A DNA stretch of 64,000 nucleotides from a virus, in the IMG/VR virus record IMGVR_UViG_3300025133_000055, positions 1 through 64,000 of that record. One strand, 5' to 3'. How positions within the stretch are numbered: the first letter of the stretch is position 1; every line of letters starts with the position of its first letter. Made by a program: the position numbers and the translations under genes. The notes under the pieces were generated by a model, which did no database searches, was not told the origin of the DNA, and was given only the letters and a program-made list of their open reading frames with translations. Shown here piece after piece: positions 42,902 through 59,594 of the stretch.

Positions 42902-43153
42902 TTGAGGTATTCGAATATGATGAAGCCAGGACAGATCATTCAGCACTGCTGTAAATTTCTCGATAAGGAAGAAGAAGAAATGGACCGCCATTTAATTTTA
43001 TCGGTGGATGAAGAATGGCTGGAAACTTATGTTTTGTTTACTAACTGGCCGGAAGGCCCACATCGTGTGGGTGAACTTCAGCAAATACTCGTTTCAACTA
43101 TCGAGTCCGAAGAAGAGACAACGAACAATTTTTATTGGAAAATAGTCTCTTGA
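42902..43153 (+). CDS. beta-barrel-like paralogue
   Basis: MKPGQIIQ...YWKIV. Confidence 0.6.
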   Translation: MRYSNMMKPGQIIQHCCKFLDKEEEEMDRHLILSVDEEWLETYVLFTNWPEGPHRVGELQQILVSTIESEEETTNNFYWKIVS

Positions 43154-43204
43154 CATTCTCTTGACAACTTAGTTGTTGACATGAGGCTCTTTATCCTGTA
43201 TAAT
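43150..43204 (+). promoter_or_regulatory. triple-TTGACA early promoter 1
   Basis: TTGACA-N5-TTGACA-N9-TTGACA-N17-TATAAT. Confidence 0.85.
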
Positions 43205-43231
43205 ATGGGTATAGAAAACGGAGAAACCAAA

Positions 43232-43471
43232 TTGTTTAGAAACTGGATAATTCAGAGCGGCGATAATGTAATCATTGATGAGTGGTGTTCATGCTGCACC
43301 CCGGAAGAAGAAGAGTGCAGCCCTCGTTTCTTCGTTATCGACGACCCGAATAACGCCGTGCATTCGCCCGGCGACCTCTATATTCGCTGCACGTGTTATG
43401 CTTCGGGCGATTCAGATTATGCAGTTGGTGAAACTTATCTAAAAAGAACCGTGGATCTAAAGGTATTATAG
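43232..43471 (+). CDS. Cys-rich hypothetical protein
   Basis: TTG start after GGAG, downstream of the promoter. Confidence 0.5.
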   Translation: MFRNWIIQSGDNVIIDEWCSCCTPEEEECSPRFFVIDDPNNAVHSPGDLYIRCTCYASGDSDYAVGETYLKRTVDLKVL

Positions 43472-43749
43472 TGCAGTTTAAGCCTGGACAAATGTTAAAA
43501 ATTGTCGGTGCCGAAGGATCGGGTGAGTGGGGTGTGTTCATAGTGTTGGAAAATATGCCTGATAATGGAATTAAACTTTGGACCGTTTCTGCGCCCAAAG
43601 CATGGTCAAACACCCTTTCAAGACAGACATTTATTTTCGAACCCCAACTATGGCTCGATCGACATGGCGGTGAATACATTGAAATATTAAGTGAAGAGAC
43701 GGCATCACTCAATGAAGCCCCCAAGGGAAAACAACGAAATGAAGTTTAA
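43471..43749 (+). CDS. beta-barrel-like paralogue
   Basis: FKPGQMLK. Confidence 0.6.
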   Translation: MQFKPGQMLKIVGAEGSGEWGVFIVLENMPDNGIKLWTVSAPKAWSNTLSRQTFIFEPQLWLDRHGGEYIEILSEETASLNEAPKGKQRNEV

Positions 43750-43915
43750 AGTAGGAGATTTAGTAAAGCATAAAGTTGCCGGTTGGATCGGTCATATTTT
43801 GGATATGACCGAGAGGGATATTACCATCCGAGTTATGTACGAACCAAGGGGAACAATCTGGCCAGTGATTTTATTGTTCCCTTCACAACTGGAATTGCTG
43901 GAAAAAGTATTATGA
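43739..43915 (+). CDS. beta-barrel-like paralogue
   Basis: MKFKVGDLVKH. Confidence 0.6.
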   Translation: MKFKVGDLVKHKVAGWIGHILDMTERDITIRVMYEPRGTIWPVILLFPSQLELLEKVL

Positions 43916-43939
43916 AAAGACATTACAAACCAATCAAAC

Positions 43940-44203
43940 ATGAAGGAAAACATGATCAAAACTTGTAAACATTGTGGAATTGAATTTAACTTATACTCAC
44001 GTCAGAAAAAACTGGTCGGAGGTTATATAAATGAGTGTCCAGACTGCGTTGAGGAATTGGGTGGTGACCAGTCAGAGCCTAGACATTTCGGTGTCACTGG
44101 TTCCTGTGGCTCTGTGAATATCCGACGATTCGATAGTGAGGAAGATAGAAAACAATTTCAAAAAGATTATGAATCTACCAAAACAATTAAGGATTTCTTA
44201 TAA
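43940..44203 (+). CDS. zinc-ribbon protein
   Basis: CKHC...CPDC. Confidence 0.6.
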   Translation: MKENMIKTCKHCGIEFNLYSRQKKLVGGYINECPDCVEELGGDQSEPRHFGVTGSCGSVNIRRFDSEEDRKQFQKDYESTKTIKDFL

Positions 44204-44439
44204 TGTCGATGCTCGAAGAACTTCAGGGCTACCCTCTCCCAGATCCCTCTTTCCAATGGAGGGACGAGGCAGAAATTTATACTTTGGAGCAGTCTGATTC
44301 GTCTTGGGTTTTGTACTGCGACGGCATGTCAGTTCGCGATAACTTTGGATATCCCATCATTTTCGAGACTAGCTGGGATGCAAAAAAGTATGCGAAGGAG
44401 ATTTTAGGGCACGAAGATGTGGTCTTGACATTCTCTTGA
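44203..44439 (+). CDS. hypothetical protein
   Basis: TAATG coupling. Confidence 0.5.
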   Translation: MSMLEELQGYPLPDPSFQWRDEAEIYTLEQSDSSWVLYCDGMSVRDNFGYPIIFETSWDAKKYAKEILGHEDVVLTFS

Positions 44440-44479
44440 CAACTTTTCTCTTGACCTGACCTAAAATATCGTGTATAAT
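44425..44479 (+). promoter_or_regulatory. triple-TTGACA early promoter 2
   Basis: TTGACA-N5-TTGACA-N9-TTGACC-N17-TATAAT. Confidence 0.85.
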
Positions 44480-44512
44480 ATAGATACATTTCAACCAAAG
44501 GAGCATTTTCAA

Positions 44513-44683
44513 ATGCCTTATCGTGACGAACCATCCCTTAAAGACCTTTACACTATTTCTTCTGAGGAATACTACGAAGAAAACTATGATTTTGGCGGGT
44601 CATATGATCCAATGCCTCTCGATATGGAGGAAGAATGCCCACAATGGATGCAGGAGCAAATTGATGAAGAAATCCCCTTTTAA
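44513..44683 (+). CDS. small acidic protein ending DEEIPF
   Basis: AGGAG + ATG; MPYRDEPS...QIDEEIPF. Confidence 0.6.
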   Translation: MPYRDEPSLKDLYTISSEEYYEENYDFGGSYDPMPLDMEEECPQWMQEQIDEEIPF

Positions 44684-44921
44684 AAATGGAGATACTGTTA
44701 CTCTGACCTTTCGTAGAAAGGACAGAAAGGCATCGTCACGCACTCGCAATAGAATAAGGGAACACGGGCCGGAATTCGTGGTGAGACAATCACCACGGGC
44801 CTTTAGGGGTGCGGGAGAGCTTGAAAATCGCCTGTGTGTTATGTTAGAGCCGGTCCCAAATCCAAACGAGTGGGCCGGTTGGTTGCCACTGGATGAAATA
44901 GAGATTATAAATGTCGTTTAA
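44664..44921 (+). CDS. beta-barrel-like paralogue
   Basis: FKNGDTV...WAGWLPLDEI; start reassigned. Confidence 0.55.
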   Translation: MKKSPFKNGDTVTLTFRRKDRKASSRTRNRIREHGPEFVVRQSPRAFRGAGELENRLCVMLEPVPNPNEWAGWLPLDEIEIINVV

Positions 44922-45129
44922 ATTTAAAACAGGACAAATCATTGACATGGAAAAACGCTCGCTGCTCGGCCGCCGCGTGTATCGGTATATCATTCTAGGC
45001 CCAGGCGAGAACCGGGGTTTCTCCTTGGTTTATTGCATGCACTCACCGCGAGATCATGATGTAGGGCAAACCTTCTCTATGAATAATTTTGTTCTAAACG
45101 CCGCAGGAGTCGCTGTTGATGGAATTTGA
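44911..45129 (+). CDS. beta-barrel-like paralogue
   Basis: FKTGQII. Confidence 0.6.
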   Translation: MSFKFKTGQIIDMEKRSLLGRRVYRYIILGPGENRGFSLVYCMHSPRDHDVGQTFSMNNFVLNAAGVAVDGI

Positions 45130-45349
45130 AGTTGGCCAAGCTGTTGAGGAATTTTATTCCGATAGTCATAAGTGGGTTTCCACCTACCTTATCCTTCAAG
45201 TGGATTATGTGGGAAGGGTAGTCGAGGCGCTGTGCCTGGGAGAATCGGAAGATCACGGCTACACTGGCGGACATATTGTGAAATTCCCCTTTACTGTTTT
45301 CACGGATCCGCCCGAGAGTTATTGGAAAGTAAATGAAAAATCAGTTTAA
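45116..45349 (+). CDS. beta-barrel-like paralogue
   Basis: FEVGQAV...YWKV. Confidence 0.6.
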   Translation: MMEFEVGQAVEEFYSDSHKWVSTYLILQVDYVGRVVEALCLGESEDHGYTGGHIVKFPFTVFTDPPESYWKVNEKSV

Positions 45350-45596
45350 ACCTGGGCAAATCATTAACGAGTATTGTGTATGGAAAACTGACAGATTGTT
45401 TTCGTCTTATTTAATAATTGATGAAGGCGGTTATCAAAATATGCACTGGAAATGTTTGTGTATATATAACGACTGTGCCGATATCAGGGAAAAGCCAGGA
45501 GAAACGCGCTTTATCAAAAAAGAGTGGCTGGCAAATCAGTCCAGCGCGAAGCAGCGCAACTGGCCATCTTTCTGGAAAATTGAAAATGAAGTTTGA
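45333..45596 (+). CDS. beta-barrel-like paralogue
   Basis: MKNQFKPGQII...FWKI. Confidence 0.6.
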   Translation: MKNQFKPGQIINEYCVWKTDRLFSSYLIIDEGGYQNMHWKCLCIYNDCADIREKPGETRFIKKEWLANQSSAKQRNWPSFWKIENEV

Positions 45597-45792
45597 AACA
45601 GGACAAATCGTTGTGCAATCTATGAATGGCATCCAGGGAATTGTTTTGGAACACAAGACTACACCTCACAATTCGTATTACAATAAGGTAATTATCTACT
45701 GTACTTTCGCTCCTCACAATTCATCATTGGTTGGACAAGCCCTGGAGCTTAGCGCCTTTGGGCTAAAGGTTAAAGATGAAAAATCAGTTTAA
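45586..45792 (+). CDS. beta-barrel-like paralogue
   Basis: MKFETGQIV; start reassigned. Confidence 0.6.
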   Translation: MKFETGQIVVQSMNGIQGIVLEHKTTPHNSYYNKVIIYCTFAPHNSSLVGQALELSAFGLKVKDEKSV

Positions 45793-46060
45793 ACCTGGGG
45801 ATTTGATTGGGAACGCCCCAAATGGATACCATCCCGATGAGCCACTGCCTCCACAACTCATGGCGAGTGGCGATTTCCGAGGTATAATCTTGGATATCAA
45901 TAGTATCGGAGACGGCGGCTTTCGTCAGTGGTGCATAACGCTGCTTATCACGCTGAATCTAAATTACAATGAGTATTTTCAGAAAGAATACCCCGTTAAT
46001 ACAGTTAAAACCTTAACAATCAACGACCTTTCAAAATGGAGAAAGATAATAAATGTTTGA
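45776..46060 (+). CDS. beta-barrel-like paralogue
   Basis: MKNQFKPGDLI...WRKI. Confidence 0.6.
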   Translation: MKNQFKPGDLIGNAPNGYHPDEPLPPQLMASGDFRGIILDINSIGDGGFRQWCITLLITLNLNYNEYFQKEYPVNTVKTLTINDLSKWRKIINV

Positions 46061-46298
46061 AGCAATTTACATCAACCGAGATCAGGCTTTTGAATTCGAT
46101 AATGGGCAGGATCTCTATTTTGGTCCGGTTGGAACTTGGTTTTCAGTCCGCGCCGATGCTCTCCTGAGATCCCGTCCTGGCGGATACGACAAGACTCACA
46201 CTGAAATACTAAAATCATATGGTACAGAAAATATCCTGCTTGTACGCACACAATCCTGCGGTCCAGGCTGGTATCAAATTCACCCGAACGAAAGATAG
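46053..46298 (+). CDS. hypothetical protein
   Basis: Overlap-coupled ORF. Confidence 0.5.
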   Translation: MFEAIYINRDQAFEFDNGQDLYFGPVGTWFSVRADALLRSRPGGYDKTHTEILKSYGTENILLVRTQSCGPGWYQIHPNER

Positions 46299-46304
46299 AT
46301 TATA

Positions 46305-46315
46305 AACTATTTATA
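46305..46315 (+). promoter_or_regulatory. late-type motif directly upstream of an early promoter
   Basis: AACTATTTATA. Confidence 0.4.
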
Positions 46316-46321
46316 AAGTTG

Positions 46322-46376
46322 TTGACATTCTCTTGACAACTTTTTTATTGACTCCAACTGAAAAACCCTGTATAAT
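46322..46376 (+). promoter_or_regulatory. triple-TTGACA early promoter 3
   Basis: TTGACA-N5-TTGACA-N9-TTGACT-N17-TATAAT. Confidence 0.85.
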
Positions 46377-46405
46377 GTATATACATTCAACGGAGATCCT
46401 CTCAC

Positions 46406-46996
46406 ATGCCCGCACAACTTGAACGAATTGAAAAACTCCTCGAAAATCAGGACTTGTCAGCTTCTAACCGCTCTTTCGCGGAGTCGTTGAGGAATAGCCA
46501 CAAAAAGTGGAAATCTCTCACTTTTGCTCAGTGGTCTGCATTCGAGAGGATGGAAGCCCGCTATGACCCTGCCGTCATTAACGCTCGAAAAGAGTGGACC
46601 AATGCCTGGAATAACGAAAAGGCTAAGAACCTTCGCATTGCTGCTGAGTATTACCTTCAAAATCCGCCTTATTTCGGTGACATCGCCGCGAAGATTGTTT
46701 CGGACGAAACTTATGTTCCGTCTGCTAAGCTTTATCGCAAGATGGTCGAAAACAAGTACGTTCAAAAGGTGCTTACAACCCGTGCTTCCGAGCCTGCCTT
46801 TGAAGTCGGCTCGCTGGTAAAGGTTCGCAAAACCAGTAGAAATCACCGTCTGAGAGATCGGATCGCTATGGTTGTCGATAATAACGGAGTAGTCAAGACA
46901 TCAGCTAAGGGAGGAAAAACCTACACTATCCTTCCTTTCGGTGAAGCGAACACGATCCAGATCGAAGAACGTTGGCTCAAAAGACACCGAGGATAA
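46406..46996 (+). CDS. hypothetical protein with C-terminal beta-barrel
   Basis: Helical N-terminus, then FEVGSLVKV. Confidence 0.7.
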   Translation: MPAQLERIEKLLENQDLSASNRSFAESLRNSHKKWKSLTFAQWSAFERMEARYDPAVINARKEWTNAWNNEKAKNLRIAAEYYLQNPPYFGDIAAKIVSDETYVPSAKLYRKMVENKYVQKVLTTRASEPAFEVGSLVKVRKTSRNHRLRDRIAMVVDNNGVVKTSAKGGKTYTILPFGEANTIQIEERWLKRHRG

Positions 46997-46998
46997 AG

Positions 46999-47238
46999 AT
47001 GCTTGAACCTGTACAATTGAAGGCCGGGGATGTTATCTCTCAAGTCCACGGCGAAAAGGAAGTTTTAAGGGTAGCTTTAACGAAGGCCGACGAGGAGATT
47101 TTGGAGGGTTACATTTTGCTCAGCGATTACGAAACCTGGGGGCAGGAAAACATAGGGGAAACCTTCCGAATGACGACGGATTATTTTTCAGCATGGTCGA
47201 ATAATAAAACTGCCTTTGTTTATTGGAGGGTAGTGTGA
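46999..47238 (+). CDS. beta-barrel-like paralogue
   Basis: LKAGDVIS...YWRVV. Confidence 0.6.
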   Translation: MLEPVQLKAGDVISQVHGEKEVLRVALTKADEEILEGYILLSDYETWGQENIGETFRMTTDYFSAWSNNKTAFVYWRVV

Positions 47239-47260
47239 AAACACAGATTTAAACTTGAAT

Positions 47261-47476
47261 ATGGCCAAGTGGGGCCAATTAACAAAAAACCCAGCCCGTT
47301 GCTGTATAGGGCTGGCTCTCGATTCTAAGGGTTGAAGGTTGCTTATCGTGGATGCGGTACATAAAGGGCTTTCTATCTCCATTATCGAGGGGGCTACCAT
47401 GAGAGTGTCAACAACAGATTTATGCAGATAGGAAGTCGGCTATCCGAGAAAAACGACACCGGCCCCACTTGGTCAT
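47261..47476 (+). ncRNA. candidate structured non-coding RNA
   Basis: 16-bp closing stem enclosing three nested stems; no credible ORF. Confidence 0.55.
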
Positions 47477-47511
47477 CATCTATTTACCAGTTTGAAACTT
47501 TATAAAATCTC

Positions 47512-47566
47512 TTGACATTTTCTTTACAATTTAGTTATTGACTTGAACCGAAATATCCTGTATAAT
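47512..47566 (+). promoter_or_regulatory. triple-TTGACA early promoter 4
   Basis: TTGACA-N5-TTTACA-N9-TTGACT-N17-TATAAT. Confidence 0.8.
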
Positions 47567-47592
47567 ATAGGTACAAATTAGGAGTTCCCAGT

Positions 47593-48369
47593 ATGTCTAT
47601 TCGCCGTCCAAATTCTGCCCATAAAAGAACCGTCCGTTGCTCATTTTGCTATGAGAGAGGACATAACAAGTCATCCTGTCCAAAATACGCCGCGAAAATA
47701 GAGGATTTTCGTACTAAATACGGTGATGACCATTATGATGTCCGCCGCTTTGACGCGAAGAAAGCCAGAAGACACGCGAAGGCCAAGGATCGCAAGTGCT
47801 CATATTGCGACGGGAAAGGCCACAATCGCGCGACCTGTCCTGAACTACTCAGCCACATTCGCGAAAGTCAGGCTAAAACCGCCTCTTTCCGCAAGTCGAT
47901 GCTCGCGCGAATGAAGGCGCTGGGAATTGGTGTTGGGACTGTTTTGTCAACGGATAGGTTTATGGGTCGCACCAATAAGGATGATTATGAATCTGCGCGC
48001 TATCGCATCCCGCACGTTATTACACTTATAAACTGGGATAATATCAATCACTTTAATCGAGAATACTCTTATTTTGATGGCAATGCCCCGTGGGTTTCCA
48101 AGCCTTTATGCGAGATCTCGGCACGTTGGAATAGTGAACCGGGCTGGCCCTGGGACGCCGAAATTGTGAAGTTACTTATGGGAGAAGCAAATGCGACAGA
48201 ATGGATTGAAGGAACCCACTGGCGATTCGATCGAAGGATGCAATATTTTTGTGATGTAGAATGCCCGGTACCAACCCCACAGCCGCCCCACAAGTGGCTT
48301 CTCGGGGGAGATCTAAAGTATTGGAAAGGGATTTATAAGAAAACAAAATCCTATTCAGGGGCTTTGTAA
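47593..48369 (+). CDS. double zinc-knuckle (CCHC) protein
   Basis: CSFCYERGHNKSSC and CSYCDGKGHNRATC (CX2CX4HX4C). Confidence 0.8.
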   Translation: MSIRRPNSAHKRTVRCSFCYERGHNKSSCPKYAAKIEDFRTKYGDDHYDVRRFDAKKARRHAKAKDRKCSYCDGKGHNRATCPELLSHIRESQAKTASFRKSMLARMKALGIGVGTVLSTDRFMGRTNKDDYESARYRIPHVITLINWDNINHFNREYSYFDGNAPWVSKPLCEISARWNSEPGWPWDAEIVKLLMGEANATEWIEGTHWRFDRRMQYFCDVECPVPTPQPPHKWLLGGDLKYWKGIYKKTKSYSGAL

Positions 48370-48383
48370 GCCTCTTTTCACCC

Positions 48384-48438
48384 TTGACATTCTCTTGACA
48401 ACTTTCTTATTGACCTAAGCCAAAATATCGTGTATAAT
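48384..48438 (+). promoter_or_regulatory. triple-TTGACA early promoter 5
   Basis: TTGACA-N5-TTGACA-N9-TTGACC-N17-TATAAT. Confidence 0.85.
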
Positions 48439-48484
48439 GTATACATAACTTGAACCTCTTCCCTACTTATCACTGGAGCCTAAA

Positions 48485-49639
48485 ATGTCCGTCGCCATCA
48501 CATTCTCAAACCTCTCTTCAATGATCCCGGCCCTTTTATCGGGTGACGAAAACAACCTTTATTCCGTTCTTATCCGTGGTCGCCACGGTATCGGCAAATC
48601 GTGGATTGCATACCAGACCGCCGCTGGCCTGACGTGGGATAAGAAGGCCAAAACTACGCGCCCGATTAAGAAGGGCGAAACTCCTCTTCCGGTAGAAGAG
48701 CAGCGCGCATCACAGATGACTGAGGGCGATCTGCTGGGTTTGCCGAGTCCAGAGATGGTTAAGATCAATGGCGAGCTTGCGGCCAACCTGCGCCCATTTG
48801 CTTGGCTTATAAGGGCATGCACGGAGCCGGTTGTGCTTTTCCTCGATGAGATCGATCGAGGCACCACCGAGGTACGTCAGGGATTTTTCCAGCTTGGCGA
48901 TAGCCGTCAAATCAACGGCTGGAAATTGCACCCTGGAACCGTTGTTTTCGGTGCAGTCAACGGCGGCGTTCACGCAGCCCAGTATCAGGTCGCCGATATG
49001 GATCCCGCAGAACTTGATCGCTGGGTTACTTTCGATGTCGAACCTTCTATTGAAGATTGGCTTAACTGGGGCAAAACCGAGGTTCATCCTATCGTATGGG
49101 ACTTTATTAATCAGAATCACGATCATCTGGAGCACAAAGGCGAATTTGAGCCGGGTACCGTATACCCATCACGCCGATCGTGGCACCGCTTGAGTAACAC
49201 ACTCGCTAAGGTCGATATGCTCGACGACGAAAACGCCGATTTAGGCTTGCTTTTCAACCTGAGTCATGGATTTGTCGGCTTTGAAGCTGCGGTTTGCTTC
49301 CGCGACTTCGTTGAGAATTTCGAGCGTCAAGTAACCGTTGAGGATATCTTAGATGATGGCAAGATCGAGAAAACCAAAGATTTTGGCCTAGTTGATCATG
49401 TCGCTTTAATTGAGAAAATGGCAGCACGCGCCGTATTCGCTGCTAAAATTGAGGATCCCCGAATGATCAATTTAGTCGCCTACTTTGATGCACTCCCGGC
49501 TGAGGCTCGAATGAAGTTATTCACAACTTTAACTGAGGACAATAACCAGATCTCAGCGGACAACGGCTCCACATTCCACAGAGAATTAGCTAGACAGGGC
49601 AAGGTTGGAGCATTTATTAAGCTTCTCGGTGGGAAGTAA
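48485..49639 (+). CDS. MoxR-like AAA+ ATPase
   Basis: GRHGIGKS, DLLGLP, LFLDEIDR, DPAELDRW, PSRRSW. Confidence 0.85.
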   Translation: MSVAITFSNLSSMIPALLSGDENNLYSVLIRGRHGIGKSWIAYQTAAGLTWDKKAKTTRPIKKGETPLPVEEQRASQMTEGDLLGLPSPEMVKINGELAANLRPFAWLIRACTEPVVLFLDEIDRGTTEVRQGFFQLGDSRQINGWKLHPGTVVFGAVNGGVHAAQYQVADMDPAELDRWVTFDVEPSIEDWLNWGKTEVHPIVWDFINQNHDHLEHKGEFEPGTVYPSRRSWHRLSNTLAKVDMLDDENADLGLLFNLSHGFVGFEAAVCFRDFVENFERQVTVEDILDDGKIEKTKDFGLVDHVALIEKMAARAVFAAKIEDPRMINLVAYFDALPAEARMKLFTTLTEDNNQISADNGSTFHRELARQGKVGAFIKLLGGK

Positions 49640-49649
49640 AACACAGGTT

Positions 49650-49673
49650 GAAGGGGGCTTTTTCGCCCCCTTC
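49650..49673 (+). terminator. hairpin after the AAA gene
   Basis: gaagggggc-N6-gcccccttc 9-bp stem; weak U tract. Confidence 0.45.
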
Positions 49674-49679
49674 GGCCTC

Positions 49680-49734
49680 TTGACATTCTTTTGACAATTG
49701 TTTTATAGACAAGTGCACTAAGATCGTGTATAAT
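49680..49734 (+). promoter_or_regulatory. triple-TTGACA early promoter 6
   Basis: TTGACA-N5-TTGACA-N9-TAGACA-N17-TATAAT. Confidence 0.8.
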
Positions 49735-49759
49735 ATATATATAAATCGGAGCTTCCTAC

Positions 49760-51112
49760 ATGACAACTATCGCCACAAAACCCGCTACTGAGGTTCTACC
49801 TTTTAATCTCGATGAACACATTGTTGATCTTTTGAGAGATGAACCCTTTTTTGCCGCTTTATCCCGTCGTATGGATAAGGTACCTTCAACCCGGATCCCT
49901 ACCGCTGGCGTGTGCTTAAATGAGGAACGATGCCGGTTTGAACTGGTTTATAACCCGATCTTCATGGGATCGATCCTTGCACGCGATAGGAAATTCGTTA
50001 AGGGTATTTTGCTCCATGAATTTTATCACATTGTGCTTTTGCATGTCACTACTCGCTTGCCAGATGGTAAAATGTCTAAAAAGTGGAATATTGCAACCGA
50101 TTTAGCGATTAATAGCGATCTTTCAATCTTTGATCACGCCGAGACATCTACAGGCTGGAAAATGGTTAGTACAATATTGCCCGAAGAAGCACTGTTTCCG
50201 ACCGTAGGCCCATTTGCAGAGTTTCCACCGGGATTATCGGCCGAGGAGTATCTTGAAATGCTGCCCGAGGGCGACGACGAAGGCGACGAAGGCGACGAAG
50301 GCGGCGAAGGCGAAGGCTCCGGCGCTGGGAAGGGAAAAGGGCAGAAAGAAAGTGATGAATCCGACGAAGGTGAGGAGGGAAGTGAGGGATCTGGCGATAG
50401 TGACGGTCCCTCCTCACCTTCCGAGGGTCACGGTGACCATTCCAATTGGGGCGACTCTGACGGTACAGATGAAAAACGTAAGATTGCGGAAGAGCGCCTA
50501 AAGGAAAATATTAAAGAGTCTTTCGTTGAGTCGCAATCTAAGGGGTTCGGATCTGTATCGGCTGGCATGCGCCGACAAATTAAAGAAGCGATCACACCTA
50601 AAGTCAATTGGCGTTCTATCCTTCGTTCATTCGTCAAGGCTTCTCAAAGAGCGGATAGAACCTCGACAATTAAGAAATTAAATCGCCGCTATGCCTATAT
50701 CCATCCGGGCCGCAAAGCAAAGCGCCAAGCGAAAATAGCGGTTTCAATTGATCAATCGGGCAGTGTGTCCGATCAAATGCTTGTCGCATTTTACGCCGAG
50801 CTTGAAAAGCTTTCTCAGCTTGCTGAATTCACGGTAATCCCCTTTGATACCGAGGTTGCCGAGGATCATGTTCACGTCTGGAAAAAAGGTGAGCGTCATG
50901 AGAAGGCCCGTTATAGATACGGCGGAACCTGCTTTAATTGCTGCACCAAATGGGTCAACGAACGACAGTTCGATGGTCACATTGTCCTGACTGATATGGA
51001 GGCTCCTAAGCCGGTTCCGAGCAAGTCTCAGCGTATGTGGATGACAACCAAGCGATGCGCCGAGCACCCTTATTTCAAAACCAACGAAAGAGTGATCGCA
51101 ATCGATGATTAA
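49760..51112 (+). CDS. HEXXH metallopeptidase-like + VWA protein (DUF2201 type)
   Basis: LLHEFYH, WNIATDLAIN, acidic linker, DQSGS, GGTCF, LTD. Confidence 0.85.
   Translation: MTTIATKPATEVLPFNLDEHIVDLLRDEPFFAALSRRMDKVPSTRIPTAGVCLNEERCRFELVYNPIFMGSILARDRKFVKGILLHEFYHIVLLHVTTRLPDGKMSKKWNIATDLAINSDLSIFDHAETSTGWKMVSTILPEEALFPTVGPFAEFPPGLSAEEYLEMLPEGDDEGDEGDEGGEGEGSGAGKGKGQKESDESDEGEEGSEGSGDSDGPSSPSEGHGDHSNWGDSDGTDEKRKIAEERLKENIKESFVESQSKGFGSVSAGMRRQIKEAITPKVNWRSILRSFVKASQRADRTSTIKKLNRRYAYIHPGRKAKRQAKIAVSIDQSGSVSDQMLVAFYAELEKLSQLAEFTVIPFDTEVAEDHVHVWKKGERHEKARYRYGGTCFNCCTKWVNERQFDGHIVLTDMEAPKPVPSKSQRMWMTTKRCAEHPYFKTNERVIAIDD
50267..50317 (+). repeat. 9-bp tandem repeat (gaaggcgac) in the acidic linker
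   Basis: Encodes EGDDEGDEGDEGGEGEG. Confidence 0.7.
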
Positions 51113-51371
51113 AGAGTTTAAAACCGAGGAATTGAAGGTAGGTGATATAATATCCCTTCGCGCGGGTTTACAGCCCGCTCCTCTTGATCATTTTACAGAA
51201 TGGTCCAGGCTGGCAATCTTTGAGATTACCAATAGGTTAATTAGAACCGTTATTTTGCTTGATAGGACTGATGGCTTCGCGCCCGGAACCCTTTACAATT
51301 TCCAGATAATCGACTTAGAACGGGCCTTAGAGACAGGCGCCCGTTGGAGGCTTTTGTGCGATTCAAAGTAG
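51105..51371 (+). CDS. beta-barrel-like paralogue
   Basis: LKVGDII...PGTLY...WRLL. Confidence 0.6.
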   Translation: MIKEFKTEELKVGDIISLRAGLQPAPLDHFTEWSRLAIFEITNRLIRTVILLDRTDGFAPGTLYNFQIIDLERALETGARWRLLCDSK

Positions 51372-51589
51372 GCGATTTGGTACTTAATAGGCTGGAATCC
51401 GAGCAGGGCGAAGAGGTAGATTGCGAGGGGATTATCGTCCAGCACTGGCAAACGCCGAGCATGGACGGCCCTGGAACTGTCGATAACGTAGTTTTATACA
51501 TAACTCTCGACCGGTCATGGCCCACACAAACGAATAAAGTAGTTACACACCGGGGTTTCAAAGAATTCCAATGGGAACTAAAACAATGA
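51356..51589 (+). CDS. beta-barrel-like paralogue
   Basis: FKVGDLV...WELK. Confidence 0.6.
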   Translation: MRFKVGDLVLNRLESEQGEEVDCEGIIVQHWQTPSMDGPGTVDNVVLYITLDRSWPTQTNKVVTHRGFKEFQWELKQ

Positions 51590-51641
51590 AGCCCAGGTTT
51601 ATGCAGGTTGAAAGGGGATTCTCGGCTCTATCTACTACAGG

Positions 51642-51902
51642 ATGGAGCACAAATTCAAAAGGGGCGACCTAATACAATATATCAGGACCGAAGCACTTTA
51701 TCTGCTATTGGAGCAAGTGGAACTCACAGAGCTTACCACCAAATATAAGAGGAAGGGAGTCGGTTTTCGCGTGATGGTGATTTATTCAGGTAGAAGCTAC
51801 ACAAAGCAGAGTACAATAACAACAATTTTTATTCCTTTCACTGCACCCTATTATGTAGTTTTAAGCTCGGCTCTCGGCGCCACCCAGGAAAACCGGGCTT
51901 GA
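51642..51902 (+). CDS. beta-barrel-like paralogue
   Basis: FKRGDLIQY. Confidence 0.6.
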   Translation: MEHKFKRGDLIQYIRTEALYLLLEQVELTELTTKYKRKGVGFRVMVIYSGRSYTKQSTITTIFIPFTAPYYVVLSSALGATQENRA

Positions 51903-51951
51903 ACGCCGATTTTTATTCGCCAAATTTTTTTAATCCACTAGGGACAACGAT

Positions 51952-52176
51952 ATGCTAGATTTAAAGCCAGGAATGTTAATTGAAGTCATAAGTCCGGTCC
52001 TTACCGAGGACAACCGCATATGGCACCTCCTCATATTGGAGGAAGAACCCGCACATTGGGTGACTCGCATGGTTTATAATAATACGAAAAAGCCAAAAGA
52101 TTACTTTCGCATCGAGAAATTATATTTAGAAAACAGATCGAGAGCGAATCAACTTAGAATCCTATCCGAAATTTAA
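51952..52176 (+). CDS. beta-barrel-like paralogue
   Basis: LKPGMLIE. Confidence 0.6.
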   Translation: MLDLKPGMLIEVISPVLTEDNRIWHLLILEEEPAHWVTRMVYNNTKKPKDYFRIEKLYLENRSRANQLRILSEI

Positions 52177-52222
52177 TAAATGACAATGAAAGATATATTT
52201 TTCGATACCCCAGAGGCCAAAA

Positions 52223-52573
52223 GTGAATCCTCACATATATGAATATATTTTTAGTCCTGGCGATATTGTAGCTGAAAGCTGGACTTTGCCCGAGAGTGGC
52301 AATATAAAAAGAGAAGAGGTTCTCCGCGTGCTTATCATTGATAAGCGAGATAGATGGTGCGATATGAACGATATCTATTATGTAGAATACCAAACAAGGG
52401 TAGTTTTTGCGCATCCCGATCGGCTTCCGCTCCATCCAGAAGGAAGGGACTTTAAACCCGGTGATACCTGGGTTTTGACGTCTTGGGAAGAGGATAATGT
52501 GAAGAAATGGAATAATGACTGGCGATCGTGGGAAGTCCTGCTTGAATCGGGCTTATCGTGGGAAGGAGAGTAA
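52223..52573 (+). CDS. beta-barrel-like paralogue
   Basis: FSPGDIV...FKPGDTW...WEVL. Confidence 0.6.
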   Translation: MNPHIYEYIFSPGDIVAESWTLPESGNIKREEVLRVLIIDKRDRWCDMNDIYYVEYQTRVVFAHPDRLPLHPEGRDFKPGDTWVLTSWEEDNVKKWNNDWRSWEVLLESGLSWEGE

Positions 52574-52678
52574 AAGTGGGCGTTTGCACCGCGACAATGG
52601 GATACTTTGTCCTATTTCTCTATTTTTCATCGATGGTGACCGCCGTGATTGTCCTCTTGGGAAGGTGGAAATGACGAC

Positions 52679-52733
52679 TTTACAAGCCCTTGACATAATA
52701 AAGATGTACAATAAGCCGCTTACGCGGTATAAT
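52679..52733 (+). promoter_or_regulatory. degenerate triple-hexamer early promoter 7
   Basis: TTTACA-N5-TTGACA-N9-TGTACA-N17-TATAAT, same geometry as promoters 1-6. Confidence 0.65.
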
Positions 52734-54360: not shown

Positions 54361-54654
54361 ATGAGTTTCAACCTTGAGGATGCCGCGCCCGGTGATATAC
54401 TAGTTTTGACCTCCAATTGGTCGAACCATTCGCTGAAAGTCGGCGAGCTACTTGGTAAATTCATCGTTGTCTCAAAAGAAAGGTCCGAGGCCAACAATAA
54501 TAATAATCCTCATTCCAAAGGTTTAACCTTGCATATCATCCAGGCCAAAGAGAGTTATCCTCCCCTGAGTAATAACATAGGAAGAAACTGCTCTTTCAGC
54601 TTTGATCAGATGGATGTCCCAATATTGACTTGGAAACTTGATTATCGTCCATAG
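54361..54654 (+). CDS. beta-barrel-like paralogue, LDYRP subfamily 3
   Basis: PGDIL...GKFIVV...LDYRP. Confidence 0.7.
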   Translation: MSFNLEDAAPGDILVLTSNWSNHSLKVGELLGKFIVVSKERSEANNNNNPHSKGLTLHIIQAKESYPPLSNNIGRNCSFSFDQMDVPILTWKLDYRP

Positions 54655-54944
54655 GGGGAAAGAAATGGTTCAAAGTGGGTTATCGTGGGGGGACATCTGA
54701 CCCATAGGAATGGTAGTTTAAAGCCTGCATATGGCTGTTCCCTTATAGGCAAGGGAGAAAGCGGGGAATCATGCTTTGTATTTAGCCCCTTCTAACTAGT
54801 AAATCAACCCCTATATTATCAACAATATTATCCCCTTGCAACCCCCACAATGCCCCGTGATGCCCATATGAATGTGATCCCCCTCTATAGCGAAGGGTGA
54901 ACCACACATATCGCGGACACACTTAAAATAAACCTATGCCCTTG

Positions 54945-55056
54945 ATAAGTCAGCTTTATGCTGGCTTTTTTTTTGTCAAGCATTATTATAACGAATTGAT
55001 ACAATGTTGACAATAAAGTGCTTGACAAGGGAAAAGCCAGCATCAAGCTGGCTTAT
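54945..55056. repeat. inverted repeat 1 (38-bp arms, 33/38)
   Basis: 54945-54982 vs 55019-55056; each arm is itself a terminator-like hairpin. Confidence 0.9.
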
Positions 55057-55384
55057 AGAGAATTGATATAAACTTGACAACTTTGTGCTTGACAGGGGAA
55101 AGCCGGGGTTTAAACTTATATATAAGTTACCAGCCCATATTGAAAGGGGGATCGCCCTAAGAGAAGTTTATAACTGACCTTTCGTTTGTCAAGTATTATT
55201 ATGACGAATTGACATAAGATTGACATTAATTTGCTTGACAGACGAAAGGTCAGTTATAAACTTGGCTATGACGAATTGACATTCAATTGACATTCTCTTG
55301 ACAACTTAGTGCTTGACAGGCTACTAATTACTTTGTAACTCCCTTATGGCGAATTGACATGCATTTGACACAAATCGCTTGACA
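54986..55384 (+). repeat. array of five TTGACA-triplet direct repeats
   Basis: Units at 54986, 55053, 55199, 55266, 55344; consensus TTAT.ACGAA-TTGACA-N5-TTGACA-N6-TGC-TTGACA. Confidence 0.9.
55164..55263. repeat. inverted repeat 2 (30-bp arms, 29/30)
   Basis: 55164-55193 vs 55234-55263. Confidence 0.9.
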
Positions 55385-55452
55385 CAAATTAATAAGTTAC
55401 AACCTGACATATCGACGATCCCAACTGATTTGTCAGGTTTAAAGGGGCATAT

Positions 55453-55475
55453 GGGGGGGGTCCCCCCCTCCCCCC
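55453..55475. other. G8-T-C7-T-C6 homopolymer tract
   Basis: Directly visible; anomalous in an AT-rich genome. Confidence 0.8.
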
Positions 55476-55591
55476 ACCGGCCGGAAAGTACCTTCCTAAC
55501 TGGGATATGGGCCGCCCCGCGCTGATACACCCGCGAGAGAGCGATTCAAAAATTTCCCAGAATAAAAAAACACAGATATGCGATCCCTAAG

Positions 55592-55602
55592 AACTATTTA
55601 TA
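55592..55602 (+). promoter_or_regulatory. putative phage late promoter motif
   Basis: AACTATTTATA. Confidence 0.6.
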
Positions 55603-55621
55603 AGCAAGAGGATCAAGAAGT

Positions 55622-55822
55622 ATGAGTGGATTAGTGACAAAAGAAGAATTAAAAGAGCAATATAGTGCCCCAAAAGAAGAAGGCTTTGAAACCAAAGAAG
55701 AGTATTTAAACGCCAAGATTGCCTGGGTCGCATCGAACCCGGATGAATACCAAGAAATCCTAAATGCGTCAAGCGCAGATGAACTATTAATGCATGAAAA
55801 GAAAAGAGGATCCAAATCATGA
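55622..55822 (+). CDS. hypothetical protein
   Basis: 66-aa ORF with SD. Confidence 0.55.
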   Translation: MSGLVTKEELKEQYSAPKEEGFETKEEYLNAKIAWVASNPDEYQEILNASSADELLMHEKKRGSKS

Positions 55823-59300: not shown

Positions 59301-59594
59301 GTGAATTTAACAAAAAAACAATTAAAAAGAATTATAAAAGAGGAGCTTAATCTTCTCAATGAGCAAGAGCAAGAGCAAGCCCCAGCCAGGGCCCGCACAA
59401 ATGTCAAGCGTGTGTCTAAGAAGCTAGAAAAAGTCGCTGGACTTGATGAGTTGCTCGCCGGGCTAACAAATAGACAAGATCTTATACAATTTATTTGGAG
59501 TCAGGTTCTTCAAAAAGTTAGTGGAAACATTTCAAAACAAGATATCGGCGCCGCACTTAAAGCTCTTCTTGCTCAAGTGGCTAAATCAGGATAA
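59301..59594 (+). CDS. leader-bearing protein (MNLTKKQLKRIIKEE)
   Basis: GTG start after the late motif; conserved leader. Confidence 0.7.
   Translation: MNLTKKQLKRIIKEELNLLNEQEQEQAPARARTNVKRVSKKLEKVAGLDELLAGLTNRQDLIQFIWSQVLQKVSGNISKQDIGAALKALLAQVAKSG

What the first reader, a model, noticed from the sequence alone, without database searches (positions are those of the whole stretch)
54945..55440. Non-coding array of phased TTGACA triplets nested in covarying inverted repeats
Seen: five ~42-bp direct repeats (54986, 55053, 55199, 55266, 55344) with consensus TTAT.ACGAA-TTGACA-N5-TTGACA-N6-TGC-TTGACA. Their hexamers have the same 11+15-bp phasing as the early promoters (unit 4 has an extra hexamer; unit 5 is 11+14). 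Units 1-2, 3-4 and 4-5 are each separated by exactly 25 nt of unique sequence. Units 1 and 3 each sit within a long inverted repeat (38 bp, 33/38; 30 bp, 29/30), and the block recurs with a 213-bp period. Beyond the TGTCAAG/CTTGACA core the two inverted repeats share little sequence, yet both pair. Five of the six mismatches are G.U-compatible on the + strand. No TATAAT follows these triplets; TAAACT at 16 nt follows units 2 and 3, so IR2 could be a divergent promoter pair. A third short IR lies at about 55401-55439. Inference: a selected cis-element such as a replication origin primed by divergent transcripts, a high-valency sink/loading site for the factor that reads the early promoters (sigma region 4 or an activator), or a structured decoy RNA. 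It lies at the early-to-late gene boundary.
Basis: partly seen in the sequence, partly recalled or inferred. Interest (0 to 1): 0.88.

Follow-up and report, generated by a model that had tools for sequence, protein, structure and literature searches.

The report
Promoter-less -35-box array in marine phage
Right after the stop signal of its early genes, an uncultured marine phage keeps a row of three to five gene-less, non-firing copies of the upstream half of its early promoters, interleaved with RNA hairpins; the boxes are under clear selection and most likely act as docking or decoy sites for whatever reads the early promoters, but no binding, transcription or function has been shown.

Summary
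Positions 54945-55440 hold five ~42-bp units (TTATRACGAA-TTGACA-N5-TTGACA-N9-TTGACA), two long inverted repeats and two inverted hexamers, directly after the early-operon terminator.

Independent metagenome assemblies span the array, so it is not an artefact. About 20 distinct variants exist in marine metagenomes, with 3-5 units each.

Across variants the hexamers and their 11+15 phasing are nearly invariant while the spacers drift. None of 61 units has a good -10 box, whereas all seven early promoters here and about 50 in distant relatives do. Hairpin pairing is kept by compensatory changes, and mismatches are G.T, which wobble-pair only in the + strand.

One relative (G003) and five distant relatives lack the array, so it is an accessory element and not an obligatory origin.

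Best reading (about 0.4): a selected boundary or decoy element derived from terminator-plus-promoter cassettes. The boxes would dock the -35 reader (most simply host sigma-70) without firing, and the hairpins would handle early read-through RNA.

Rivals are neutral cassette relics (as in T4-type PeSLs), weak promoters or small-RNA genes, an RNA platform, and an origin, packaging site or injection-stop site.

This scan has noted similar promoter-like arrays after early terminators in other phages.

The parts
54947..54976 (+). Early-operon intrinsic terminator T_E: 8-bp stem, 5-nt loop, T9 run. It also forms the left arm of IR1.
   Evidence: Best terminator-like site in 42-57 kb. The same terminator-plus-TGTCAAG junction occurs in G001, G004 and all metagenome variants.
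54974..54979 (-). Inverted hexamer (TGTCAAG on the + strand), 22 nt before the first hexamer of unit 1.
   Evidence: The 21-22 nt distance is kept in relatives even where the AT-rich filler sequence is replaced.
54986..55027 (+). Unit 1 (hexamers at 54996, 55007, 55022).
   Evidence: family D2. TTGATA at 54996 reads TTGACA in 4 of 4 other runs.
54985..55013 (-). Minus-strand sigma-70-like promoter TTGTCA-N17-TATAAT. Its -35 is the complement of hexamer 2 and its -10 is the complement of the TTATAA flank.
   Evidence: 11/12 consensus match. The same feature occurs in G001 unit B. It is absent in variants with the other filler, so it is not universal.
54945..55056 (+). IR1: 38-nt arms (54945-54982 and 55019-55056) enclosing hexamers 1-2 of unit 1.
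   Evidence: I1. The + strand RNA folds at -60.9 kcal/mol (z -12.2) against -50.9 for the - strand. Four of its 5 mismatches are G.T.
55053..55094 (+). Unit 2 (TTGATA at 55063; TTGACA at 55074 and 55089).
55088..55193 (+). 106-nt element H bounded by CTTGACA...TGTCAAG. Here the arms pair weakly (70%). It contains the palindrome AACTTATATATAAGTT (55113-55128) and a degenerate copy of the late-promoter region (55146-55173).
   Evidence: I3, D8. The element is 103-106 nt long in all 21 distinct variants. It is a 34-bp stem followed by a U-tract in G001-type arrays.
55164..55263 (+). IR2: 30-nt arms (55164-55193 and 55234-55263) enclosing hexamers 1-2 of unit 3. An inverted hexamer lies at 55187-55192.
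   Evidence: I2. The + strand RNA folds at -53.0 kcal/mol (z -12.5) against -43.1 for the - strand. Three double compensatory changes separate it from L061.
55199..55240 (+). Unit 3 (hexamers at 55209, 55220, 55235).
55266..55318 (+). Unit 4, with four hexamers (55276, 55287, 55298, 55313). Its inner part is identical in form to the upstream half of the early promoter at 43150.
   Evidence: The population variant AA>TC at 55285-6 makes the spacer promoter-like.
55344..55384 (+). Unit 5 (hexamers at 55354, 55365, 55379; phasing 11+14).
   Evidence: Its last hexamer lies 48 nt before the anchor GATTTGTCAGG, as in every metagenome variant that reaches the anchor and has this last unit intact.
55385..55570 (+). 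Conserved downstream element. It holds a short hairpin at 55401-55439, the G8-T-C7 run, CCGGAAAGT, CTGGG and TTCCCAGAATAA.
   Evidence: Conserved in W, G001, G003, G004 and L050. No Rfam family matches and no covariation is seen.
55578..55604 (+). Late-type promoter motif AACTATTTATAA, upstream of the first downstream gene (ATG at 55622).
   Evidence: The motif CTATTTATA occurs 10 times forward and once in reverse, mostly just upstream of start codons.

Best explanation
The array is a selected, lineage-specific boundary element at the end of the early operon. It is built from gene-less, -10-less copies of the phage's own 'terminator stem-loop plus triple -35-box' early cassette. At the DNA level, the phased TTGACA boxes (one inverted box, then three direct boxes spaced 22, 11 and 15 nt) would serve as docking sites for whatever reads the same boxes at the early promoters. 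The simplest candidate is region 4 of sigma-70 in the host RNA polymerase holoenzyme; an early or injected phage factor is the alternative. Because the units lack a usable -10, they would bind without firing. The array would then work as a decoy, sink or roadblock that helps separate early from late transcription, and its strength would be tuned by the number of units. At the RNA level, the hairpins between and around the units form in the + strand read-through transcript, where they terminate or process RNA that escapes the first terminator and keep the array free of transcription.

Shown: the anatomy; conservation of boxes and phasing; the absence of -10 boxes; maintained pairing with a + strand wobble bias; copy-number variation; derivation from promoter cassettes.

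For: 1. The hexamer is the sigma-70 -35 consensus. It has the same 11+15 phasing as in 7 early promoters here, in 37 IMG/VR stretches that share the exact 21-mer, and in about 50 promoters of five distant genomes.
2. In 60 distinct unit sequences from 38 arrays, hexamer columns carry 1.9 bits and the other columns 0.64 bits. The SNPs seen in four runs avoid the hexamers, and one restores TTGACA.
3. None of 61 third hexamers in 22 array variants has a 5/6 or better -10. All 7 early promoters have 6/6.
4. Three distances are fixed while the sequence between them changes: inverted hexamer to first hexamer 21-22 nt, element H 103-106 nt, last hexamer to downstream anchor 48 nt.
5. The array always starts at the early terminator.
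6. Hairpin pairing is maintained. There are three double compensations between W and L061, and A-U/G-U/G-C series in H. Twelve stem positions show G.T against 2 with A.C. The + strand folds are about 10 kcal/mol better for the window's three hairpins (IR1, IR2, H), though only about 2 kcal/mol better for G001's H.
7. Unit number varies among strains.
Against: No binding, transcription or phenotype data exist, and no RNA run holds this phage. Sigma-70 holoenzyme binds weakly to a -35 box without a -10, so a pure RNAP sink is biophysically uncertain. The unit-specific flank TTATRACGAA and the TGC before the third hexamer are conserved but absent from the promoters, so the units may have their own reader, or a minus-strand promoter function. 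The array is absent from G003 and from five distant relatives with the same promoters, so it is dispensable. Part of the G.T bias can be explained by constraint on the terminator U-tracts. The unit statistics are biased, because units were detected by near-perfect hexamers.
Confidence: 0.4

Rival explanations
1. The array is a neutral graveyard of degraded terminator-promoter cassettes. It was left by recombination that removed the genes and -10 boxes, like the 'half PeSLs' of T4-type phages, and has no function of its own.
For: [quoted passage not shown] 5 legend). The units are clearly homologous to the early-promoter upstream halves: unit 4 and units A of G001 and G004 keep the TTCTC and ACTT spacers. 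Unit number varies, and G003 and the distant relatives lack the array.
Against: The hexamers stay perfect while the spacers between them diverge into about ten different 5-mers. A -10 is absent in 61 of 61 units, and no array variant carries a gene between units. Distances are fixed even where the filler is replaced. Stem changes are compensated. The units share a flank that the promoters lack.
Confidence: 0.15
2. The units are real but weak or conditional promoters, or small-RNA genes. Candidates are rightward TTGACA-N16-(T/C)AAACT promoters, a strong leftward TTGTCA-N17-TATAAT promoter, and in G001-type arrays a + strand TTGTCA-N18-TACATT promoter whose transcript would end at hairpin H. These would produce short hairpin RNAs or prime transcription towards the late genes.
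For: The promoter scans flag 55089 and 55235 (+), 55192 (-) and 55013 (-, 11/12 match). In G001 they flag 1520 (-, 11/12) and 1337 (+). About half of the third hexamers have A at position 2 and T at position 6 of a hexamer 16-18 nt downstream. The conserved flank TTATRACGAA reads as a -10 on the minus strand.
Against: The minus-strand -10 is lost in several variants (L060, L065 and L061 unit A). The wobble bias favours + strand RNA, not the minus-strand transcript. The rightward '-10' boxes reach only 2-4 of 6 matches, and they are mirror images of stem sequence. No expression data exist.
Confidence: 0.15
3. The array acts as RNA. The 3' untranslated read-through part of the early transcript folds into long hairpins that display UUGACA-N5-UUGACA in their loops. 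This would form a platform or sponge for an RNA-binding protein, for example the conserved early protein with two zinc knuckles, or a set of RNase III-type processing sites.
For: Mismatches in IR1, IR2 and H are G.U-compatible on the + strand, and the + strand folds are more stable. Changes in the stems are compensatory. An early protein with two CX2CX4HX4C knuckles, similar to retroviral nucleocapsid, TUT4 and Lin28 knuckles, is conserved in all relatives tested.
Against: The boxes equal the -35 consensus and keep the exact promoter phasing, which an RNA site would not need. Many units (B and C of G001-type arrays; units 2, 4 and 5 here) are not enclosed by hairpins. The array lies beyond a strong terminator. 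Nothing links the zinc-knuckle protein to the motif.
Confidence: 0.15
4. The array is a DNA-transaction site: an iteron-type replication origin, a terminase recognition (pac) site, or an injection-stop signal like the T5 iss region.
For: Arrays of short phased repeats with inverted repeats in a non-coding gap, insulated by terminators and variable in copy number, are typical of such sites. The T5 iss region is an untranslated repeat- and palindrome-rich region at the end of the pre-early genes and carries boxes for a host protein (bioRxiv 10.1101/866236, abstract).
Against: G003 and five distant relatives lack the array. There is no DnaA-box cluster, no sign change in GC skew and no adjacent initiator or terminase gene. 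Contig ends do not coincide with the array. The repeated word is the promoter -35 box.
Confidence: 0.1

Closest known systems
PeSLs (promoter-early stem-loops) and degraded 'half PeSLs' of T4-type phages (Arbiol et al. 2010; Comeau, Arbiol and Krisch 2014, PMC4122927)
   Same: Both are composite terminator stem-loop plus sigma-70-type early promoter cassettes, repeated through a plastic early region. Degraded copies that keep the -35 and the stem-loop but have no -10 are described. Both are associated with indels and copy-number change.
   Different: Here the -10-less copies form a tight tandem array at one fixed place, the end of the early operon. They carry three phased boxes plus an inverted one, and a flank of their own. 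They are conserved across about 20 variants rather than decaying. The phage is not shown to be T4-like: it has a DnaE-type polymerase.
Injection-stop-signal (iss) region of phage T5 (Davison, bioRxiv 10.1101/866236)
   Same: Both are untranslated, rich in repeats, inverted repeats and palindromes, lie at the distal end of the first-expressed gene block, and contain an ordered set of boxes for a host DNA-binding protein.
   Different: T5 uses DnaA boxes inside a terminal repeat. Here the boxes are -35-type hexamers, no terminal position or two-step injection is known, and the T5 mechanism is itself a hypothesis.
Decoy iteron arrays such as P1 incA or F incC (my own knowledge, not checked here)
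   Same: Both are tandem copies of a binding site also used at a functional site (origin or promoter). They lie apart from that site and are thought to act by titration, with a copy-number-dependent effect.
   Different: Those arrays bind a known plasmid-encoded initiator and control replication.
Promoter-like arrays noted earlier in this scan (e1-3267073: TTGACA modules with a crippled -10 after the early terminator of a Bacillus phage-plasmid; e1-4039522: box array in Felix O1-like terminal repeats)
   Same: Both are same-strand arrays of promoter-upstream modules with a perfect -35-type box and no good -10. They sit after early terminators or at genome ends, and copy number varies among relatives.
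   Different: They occur in unrelated phages with different box architecture. Those notes are unchecked AI readings and are not independent evidence.

Membership tests
Sigma-70 promoter | A -35 hexamer close to TTGACA | tested here: met
   14 perfect TTGACA and 2 TTGATA on the + strand.
Sigma-70 promoter | A -10 hexamer close to TATAAT, 16-18 nt downstream | tested here: not met
   The best is TAAACT (4/6) for units 2 and 3. None of 61 units in 22 variants reaches 5/6, whereas all 7 early promoters have 6/6.
PeSL / degraded PeSL (T4-type phages) | A stem-loop terminator immediately upstream of early-promoter elements | tested here: met
   T_E and the H or IR hairpins precede the units. Early promoters at 48384 and 49680 are also preceded by stem-loops.
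PeSL / degraded PeSL (T4-type phages) | Degraded copies decay: weak or mis-spaced boxes and eroded stems | tested here: not met
   Hexamers, phasing and stems are conserved across about 20 variants.
PeSL / degraded PeSL (T4-type phages) | The host genome is a T4-type myovirus | tested here: inconclusive
   The polymerase is DnaE-type and at most 30% identical to that of any cultured phage. Structural genes were not identified.
Iteron-type replication origin | Tandem direct repeats that bind an initiator encoded nearby | tested here: inconclusive
   Repeats are present. No initiator gene is adjacent: the flanking genes have no family hit.
Iteron-type replication origin | Host-factor boxes (DnaA) and conservation in all relatives | tested here: not met
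   DnaA boxes are at chance level and none lies in the array. G003 and five distant genomes lack the array.
CRISPR array | Near-identical repeats, unique acquired spacers of constant length, regular period | tested here: not met
   Units are only 69-78% alike. Spacings are 67, 146, 67 and 78 nt. The 'spacers' are inherited and homologous among variants.
Intrinsic (Rho-independent) terminator | A GC-rich short-loop hairpin followed by a T run | tested here: met
   Met for T_E only (54947-54976). H in G001-type arrays has a 34-bp stem followed by a U-tract but a 37-nt loop, so the simple scan does not call it.
Known RNA family (Rfam) | A match at or above the gathering score | tested here: not met
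   Only generic hairpin (miRNA-precursor) matches appear, all far below gathering scores.
T5-type injection stop signal | Location in a terminal repeat at the end of first-step-transfer DNA | not testable with these tools
   The genome ends of this lineage are unknown, and the contigs are 'linear, no end repeats'.

The most novel reading that the evidence does not exclude
The array is a purpose-built decoy. A row of perfect, phased -35 boxes cannot fire, but it captures host sigma-70 RNA polymerase, or the factor that reads the double upstream boxes of the early promoters. The hairpins keep the decoy clear of transcription, and strains tune the timer by changing the unit number.
Probability: 0.25. 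Interest if true: 0.8.

Novelty: new variant of a known kind. Interest (0 to 1): 0.55.

Why it matters
Phage early promoters are normally thought of one at a time. This lineage belongs to a widespread group of 170-205 kb marine phages whose early promoters share an exactly conserved double box upstream of the -35. The lineage has also amplified the box module, without a -10, into a conserved array at the early/late boundary. If the array titrates or blocks the promoter reader, it would be a natural example of decoy-site timing in a virus and would give a handle on what reads the upstream boxes. If it is only a terminator-rich relic, it still shows that '-35-only' cassette remnants can stay under selection, which changes how degraded PeSL-type elements should be read. 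The hexamer-plus-hairpin design is also small enough to test in a plasmid reporter although the host is unknown.

Tried and rejected
- **Cultured relatives.** Nucleotide searches against cultured phages found nothing for this window or for a second contig group. Protein searches with the polymerase and GroEL gave only distant hits of at most 30-44% identity. The host remains unknown.
- **Host search by motif.** The 19-mer scan of 185,579 genomes returned Acidobacteriaceae MAG sites with no promoter context and one WOR-3 MAG with two phage-like promoters, which is probably phage DNA. It gave no host lead.
- **Expression.** No RNA holder was listed for this phage, so expression could not be examined.
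- **Known RNA families.** Rfam returned only sub-threshold hairpin matches.
- **Downstream conserved element.** Consensus folding found no compensatory pair.
- **RNAalifold on all H elements.** It failed to recover the stem because the array types pair in different registers. I used a hand-set structure on one type instead. There the shuffle control gives only modest support (16 of 500 shuffles reach the score).
- **G004 inserted gene.** I guessed it was a sigma factor from its sequence, but it has no Pfam support and no homologue in this contig. I dropped the guess.
- **Co-occurring genes.** No early gene is present in the array-bearing genomes and clearly absent in G003.
- **Packaging genes.** No terminase or portal gene was found at 64-87 kb, so pac adjacency cannot be judged.
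- **DnaA boxes.** They are at chance level.
- **CRISPR reading.** Rejected because the repeats diverge and the spacing is irregular.
- **Integron attC resemblance.** The ends of H differ from the core site at the base where recombination would occur and no integrase was seen, so I treated this as coincidence.
- **Other motif resemblances.** MotA-box, sigma-32, sigma-E, FNR, Fur and Spo0A resemblances were considered by eye and dropped for wrong spacing or poor matches.
- **Protein Atlas.** The search with the zinc-knuckle protein returned only viral hypothetical proteins.

Full report
**What is there**

The window is the first 64 kb of an 87,145-bp viral contig, and every ORF of 150 aa or more but one lies on the + strand. 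A non-coding gap of about 970 bp lies between a small early gene that ends at 54654 and a gene that starts at 55622.

- Five units of about 42 bp lie at 54986, 55053, 55199, 55266 and 55344.
- Each unit carries three TTGACA-type hexamers spaced 11 and 15 nt. Unit 4 has four hexamers and unit 5 is spaced 11+14.
- There are two 30-38-nt inverted repeats, a 213-bp repeat of the whole block, and a short third hairpin.
- The window has 73 TTGACA against about 40 expected, and the excess is concentrated here and at the early promoters.
- In the whole contig, phased hexamer pairs occur only at seven early promoters (43150-52679) and at the five units, apart from one near-match on the minus strand at 59418.

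**It is not an artefact**

Contigs from four independent marine metagenome runs were laid on the stretch. Single contigs of three of them span most or all of the array with 3-6 differences. The phage occurs in runs from at least 21 studies, all marine.

In all four runs position 55000 is C, so the first hexamer of unit 1 is TTGACA in the population. The other variable positions inside the array fall in spacers or flanks, not in hexamers. Several contigs join unit to unit and skip 86-309 bp, so strains differ in unit number.

**What the units are related to**

The early promoters read TTGACA-ttctc-TTGACA-actt-N5-TTGAC-N17-tgTATAAT. The 21-mer that covers the two upstream boxes is exact in 37 stretches of IMG/VR. 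In every case it stands at the same distance upstream of a -35 and a -10.

Ten related contigs of 60-205 kb each carry 4-11 such sites, almost all on one strand within a block of roughly 10-15 kb. The array units have the same three boxes and phasing. Unit 4 and the first units of G001 and G004 even keep the promoter spacers. So the units are copies of the upstream half of the early promoter.

The early promoters at 48384 and 49680 are themselves preceded by terminator stem-loops. The array begins at the best terminator of the region, 54947-54976. The building block is therefore the 'stem-loop plus early promoter' cassette known from T4-type phages as a PeSL. Degraded PeSLs that keep the -35 and the stem-loop but not the -10 have been described (PMC4122927). 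That sets the ordinary reading against which everything else must be judged.

**Relatives**

The orthologous gap exists in G001 (three units), in G004 and its close variant L050 (two to three degenerate units), and in G003 (no array at all). All four share a strongly conserved element just downstream of the array position.

A metagenome scan with a unit-specific pattern returned 35 more loci. With the window and its two viral relatives (38 arrays in all) these fall into 22 similarity groups, about 20 distinct arrays of 8-15 forward hexamers. All follow one plan:
- the early terminator with its T run;
- TGTCAAG;
- 15-16 nt of AT-rich filler;
- a first unit;
- a 103-106-nt element bounded by CTTGACA and TGTCAAG, called H here;
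- further units;
- the conserved downstream element, starting exactly 48 nt after the last hexamer wherever that unit is intact.

Five more distant genomes with the same promoter architecture have about 50 triple-box sites. Almost all of these have a good -10, and none forms a dense array. The promoter-less array is therefore an accessory feature of one sublineage.

**Evidence for selection**

1. Hexamers and phasing stay fixed while spacers diverge. In 60 distinct unit sequences the hexamer columns carry 1.9 of 2 bits and the remaining columns 0.64 bits. The first spacer of the last unit alone occurs as about ten different 5-mers between unchanged hexamers. This statistic is biased, because units were found by near-perfect hexamers. 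The SNP pattern is not biased in that way and points the same way.
2. A good -10 is absent everywhere. None of 61 third hexamers has a 5/6 match at 16-18 nt, against 6/6 for all seven early promoters.
3. Distances are kept where the sequence is replaced. The inverted hexamer lies 21-22 nt before the first box whether the filler is ATTATTATAACGAA or AAAATAAATGGTGAA. H keeps its length although its sequence differs completely between array types.
4. The units have their own conserved flank, TTATRACGAA, and a TGC before the third box. The promoters lack both.

A decaying relic would not show these four properties together.

**The inverted repeats**

IR1, IR2 and H fold far better than shuffled sequence (z of -12 to -13 for IR1, IR2 and G001's H). 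For the window's IR1, IR2 and H the + strand RNA is about 10 kcal/mol more stable than the - strand; for G001's H the gap is only about 2 kcal/mol.

Five of the six mismatches in IR1 and IR2 are G.T. In the G001-type H stem (34 pairs, 94.8% of cells paired), twelve positions show a G.T state and two an A.C state. Pairs run through A-U, G-U and G-C series.

Between this window and L061, three positions of the left arm of IR2 differ, and all three are compensated in the right arm. A fourth position occurs as T.G, C-G and T-A.

Pairing is therefore maintained, and the strand bias points to the + strand as the folded strand, as RNA or as single-stranded DNA. Two cautions apply. Part of the bias can come from constraint on the terminator U-tracts. 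Within one array type the shuffle control is only modestly exceeded (16 of 500).

Which arms pair also differs between array types. In this window the hairpins enclose units 1 and 3. In G001-type arrays the long stem lies between units A and B, and the right flank of unit B does not pair. In G001-type arrays H looks like a long read-through terminator, a stem followed by a U-tract, although the simple scan does not call it because of its 37-nt loop.

**Other features**

A minus-strand sigma-70-like promoter, TTGTCA-N17-TATAAT, is formed by the complement of the second box and the unit flank. It matches 11 of 12 positions here (55013 to 54985) and in G001. It is missing in several variants, and the wobble bias does not favour the minus-strand transcript.

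Weak rightward '-10' boxes of the type (T/C)AAACT follow many third hexamers at 16-17 nt. They are mirror images of stem sequence.

The phage's late-type promoter motif, AACTATTTATA(A/G), is strongly strand-biased and sits before many genes. One copy lies before the first downstream gene, and a degenerate copy of that region lies inside the array at 55146-55173 (D8).

There is no DnaA-box cluster, no GC-skew turn, no Rfam family, and no informative family for the flanking genes.

**Interpretation**

I read the array as a selected boundary element made from disarmed early cassettes. The missing -10 prevents firing. The hairpins act on + strand read-through RNA.

This makes the array a decoy or roadblock whose strength depends on unit number. 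I give this about 0.4. Nothing about binding or effect is shown, and sigma-70 holoenzyme binds poorly to a -35 alone.

The rivals:
- neutral cassette relics (0.15);
- weak promoters or small-RNA genes (0.15);
- an RNA platform for a protein (0.15);
- an origin, packaging site or injection-stop site (0.1).

The RNA-platform reading has one possible partner. A conserved early protein (47593-48369) has two invariant CX2CX4HX4C motifs that match retroviral nucleocapsid, TUT4 and Lin28 zinc knuckles. It is present next to triple-box promoters in all five distant genomes tested. No link between this protein and the array has been tested.

**Novelty**

The kind is known: PeSL-type cassettes and their -10-less remnants, and decoy repeat arrays. 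A conserved, phased, terminator-interleaved array of -35-only modules at the early/late boundary of an uncultured marine phage lineage is a new variant. Earlier notes of this scan describe comparable promoter-like arrays after early terminators in unrelated phages. I used them as leads only.

Noticed in passing
window 43150-52733, and loci L001-L037: The 21-mer TTGACATTCTCTTGACAACTT upstream of the -35 is exactly conserved in 37 IMG/VR stretches from contigs of 8-205 kb. It always stands at a fixed distance from a -35 and a -10. Two classes of -10 and leader occur: tgTATAATgtata and tgtTATATTATAtgtatagaaaggag. This exact motif appears to mark a widespread group of uncultured phages; the runs holding this phage are all marine.
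   Followed up: partly
window 55385-55570: A strongly conserved non-coding element lies downstream of the array. It holds two GATTTGTCA repeats, a G8-T-C7 run, CCGGAAAGT, CTGGG and TTCCCAGAATAA. It is present in W, G001, G003, G004 and L050, and it is kept even where the array is missing. No Rfam match and no covariation were found. In G001 and G004 a gene (an HNH-type gene, or an unassigned 228-aa ORF) is inserted just after it, between duplicated copies of the TTCCCAGAATAA segment.
   Followed up: partly
window 47593-48369: A conserved early protein of 258 aa has two invariant CX2CX4HX4C motifs separated by a basic stretch. A profile search of the PDB hits the zinc knuckles of TUT4, MoMuLV nucleocapsid and Lin28. 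Homologues sit in the early regions of five distant genomes, several of them close to a triple-box promoter. It is probably a binder of single-stranded nucleic acid.
   Followed up: partly
whole contig, e.g. 14920, 29545, 46307, 55594, 57594, 59278, 63232, and 65459 and 73672 beyond the window: The strand-biased motif (A)ACTATTTATA(A/G) occurs 10 times forward and once in reverse. It lies about 10-25 nt upstream of many start codons and is probably the phage's late (or middle) promoter. At 46307 it directly abuts an early triple-box promoter.
   Followed up: partly
window 4615-35204, and 56368, 56843, 60605, 63150: A second class of sigma-70 promoters has a single perfect TTGACA-N17-TATAAT and an AT-rich upstream region where the early promoters carry the two extra boxes. 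These lie mainly in the replication-gene region.
   Followed up: no
window 48485-51112: An AAA+ ATPase (MoxR/AAA_5-like) plus a DUF2201 metallopeptidase/VWA protein form the best-conserved early gene pair: 84-87% and 69-70% identity in G001, G003 and G004.
   Followed up: no
L054 (CP070664.1, candidate division WOR-3 MAG chromosome), about 1280 and 1475 on the minus strand: Two phage-type triple-box promoters with the exact 19-mer lie 195 bp apart inside a MAG chromosome. This may be a prophage, or phage DNA binned with the MAG. It is the only cellular-genome lead for this promoter type.
   Followed up: no
window 54655-54945: The 290 bp between the last early gene and the terminator are also non-coding. 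They are partly conserved in G001 (71% over 168 nt). In G001 two small ORFs follow at this place that this window lacks.
   Followed up: no
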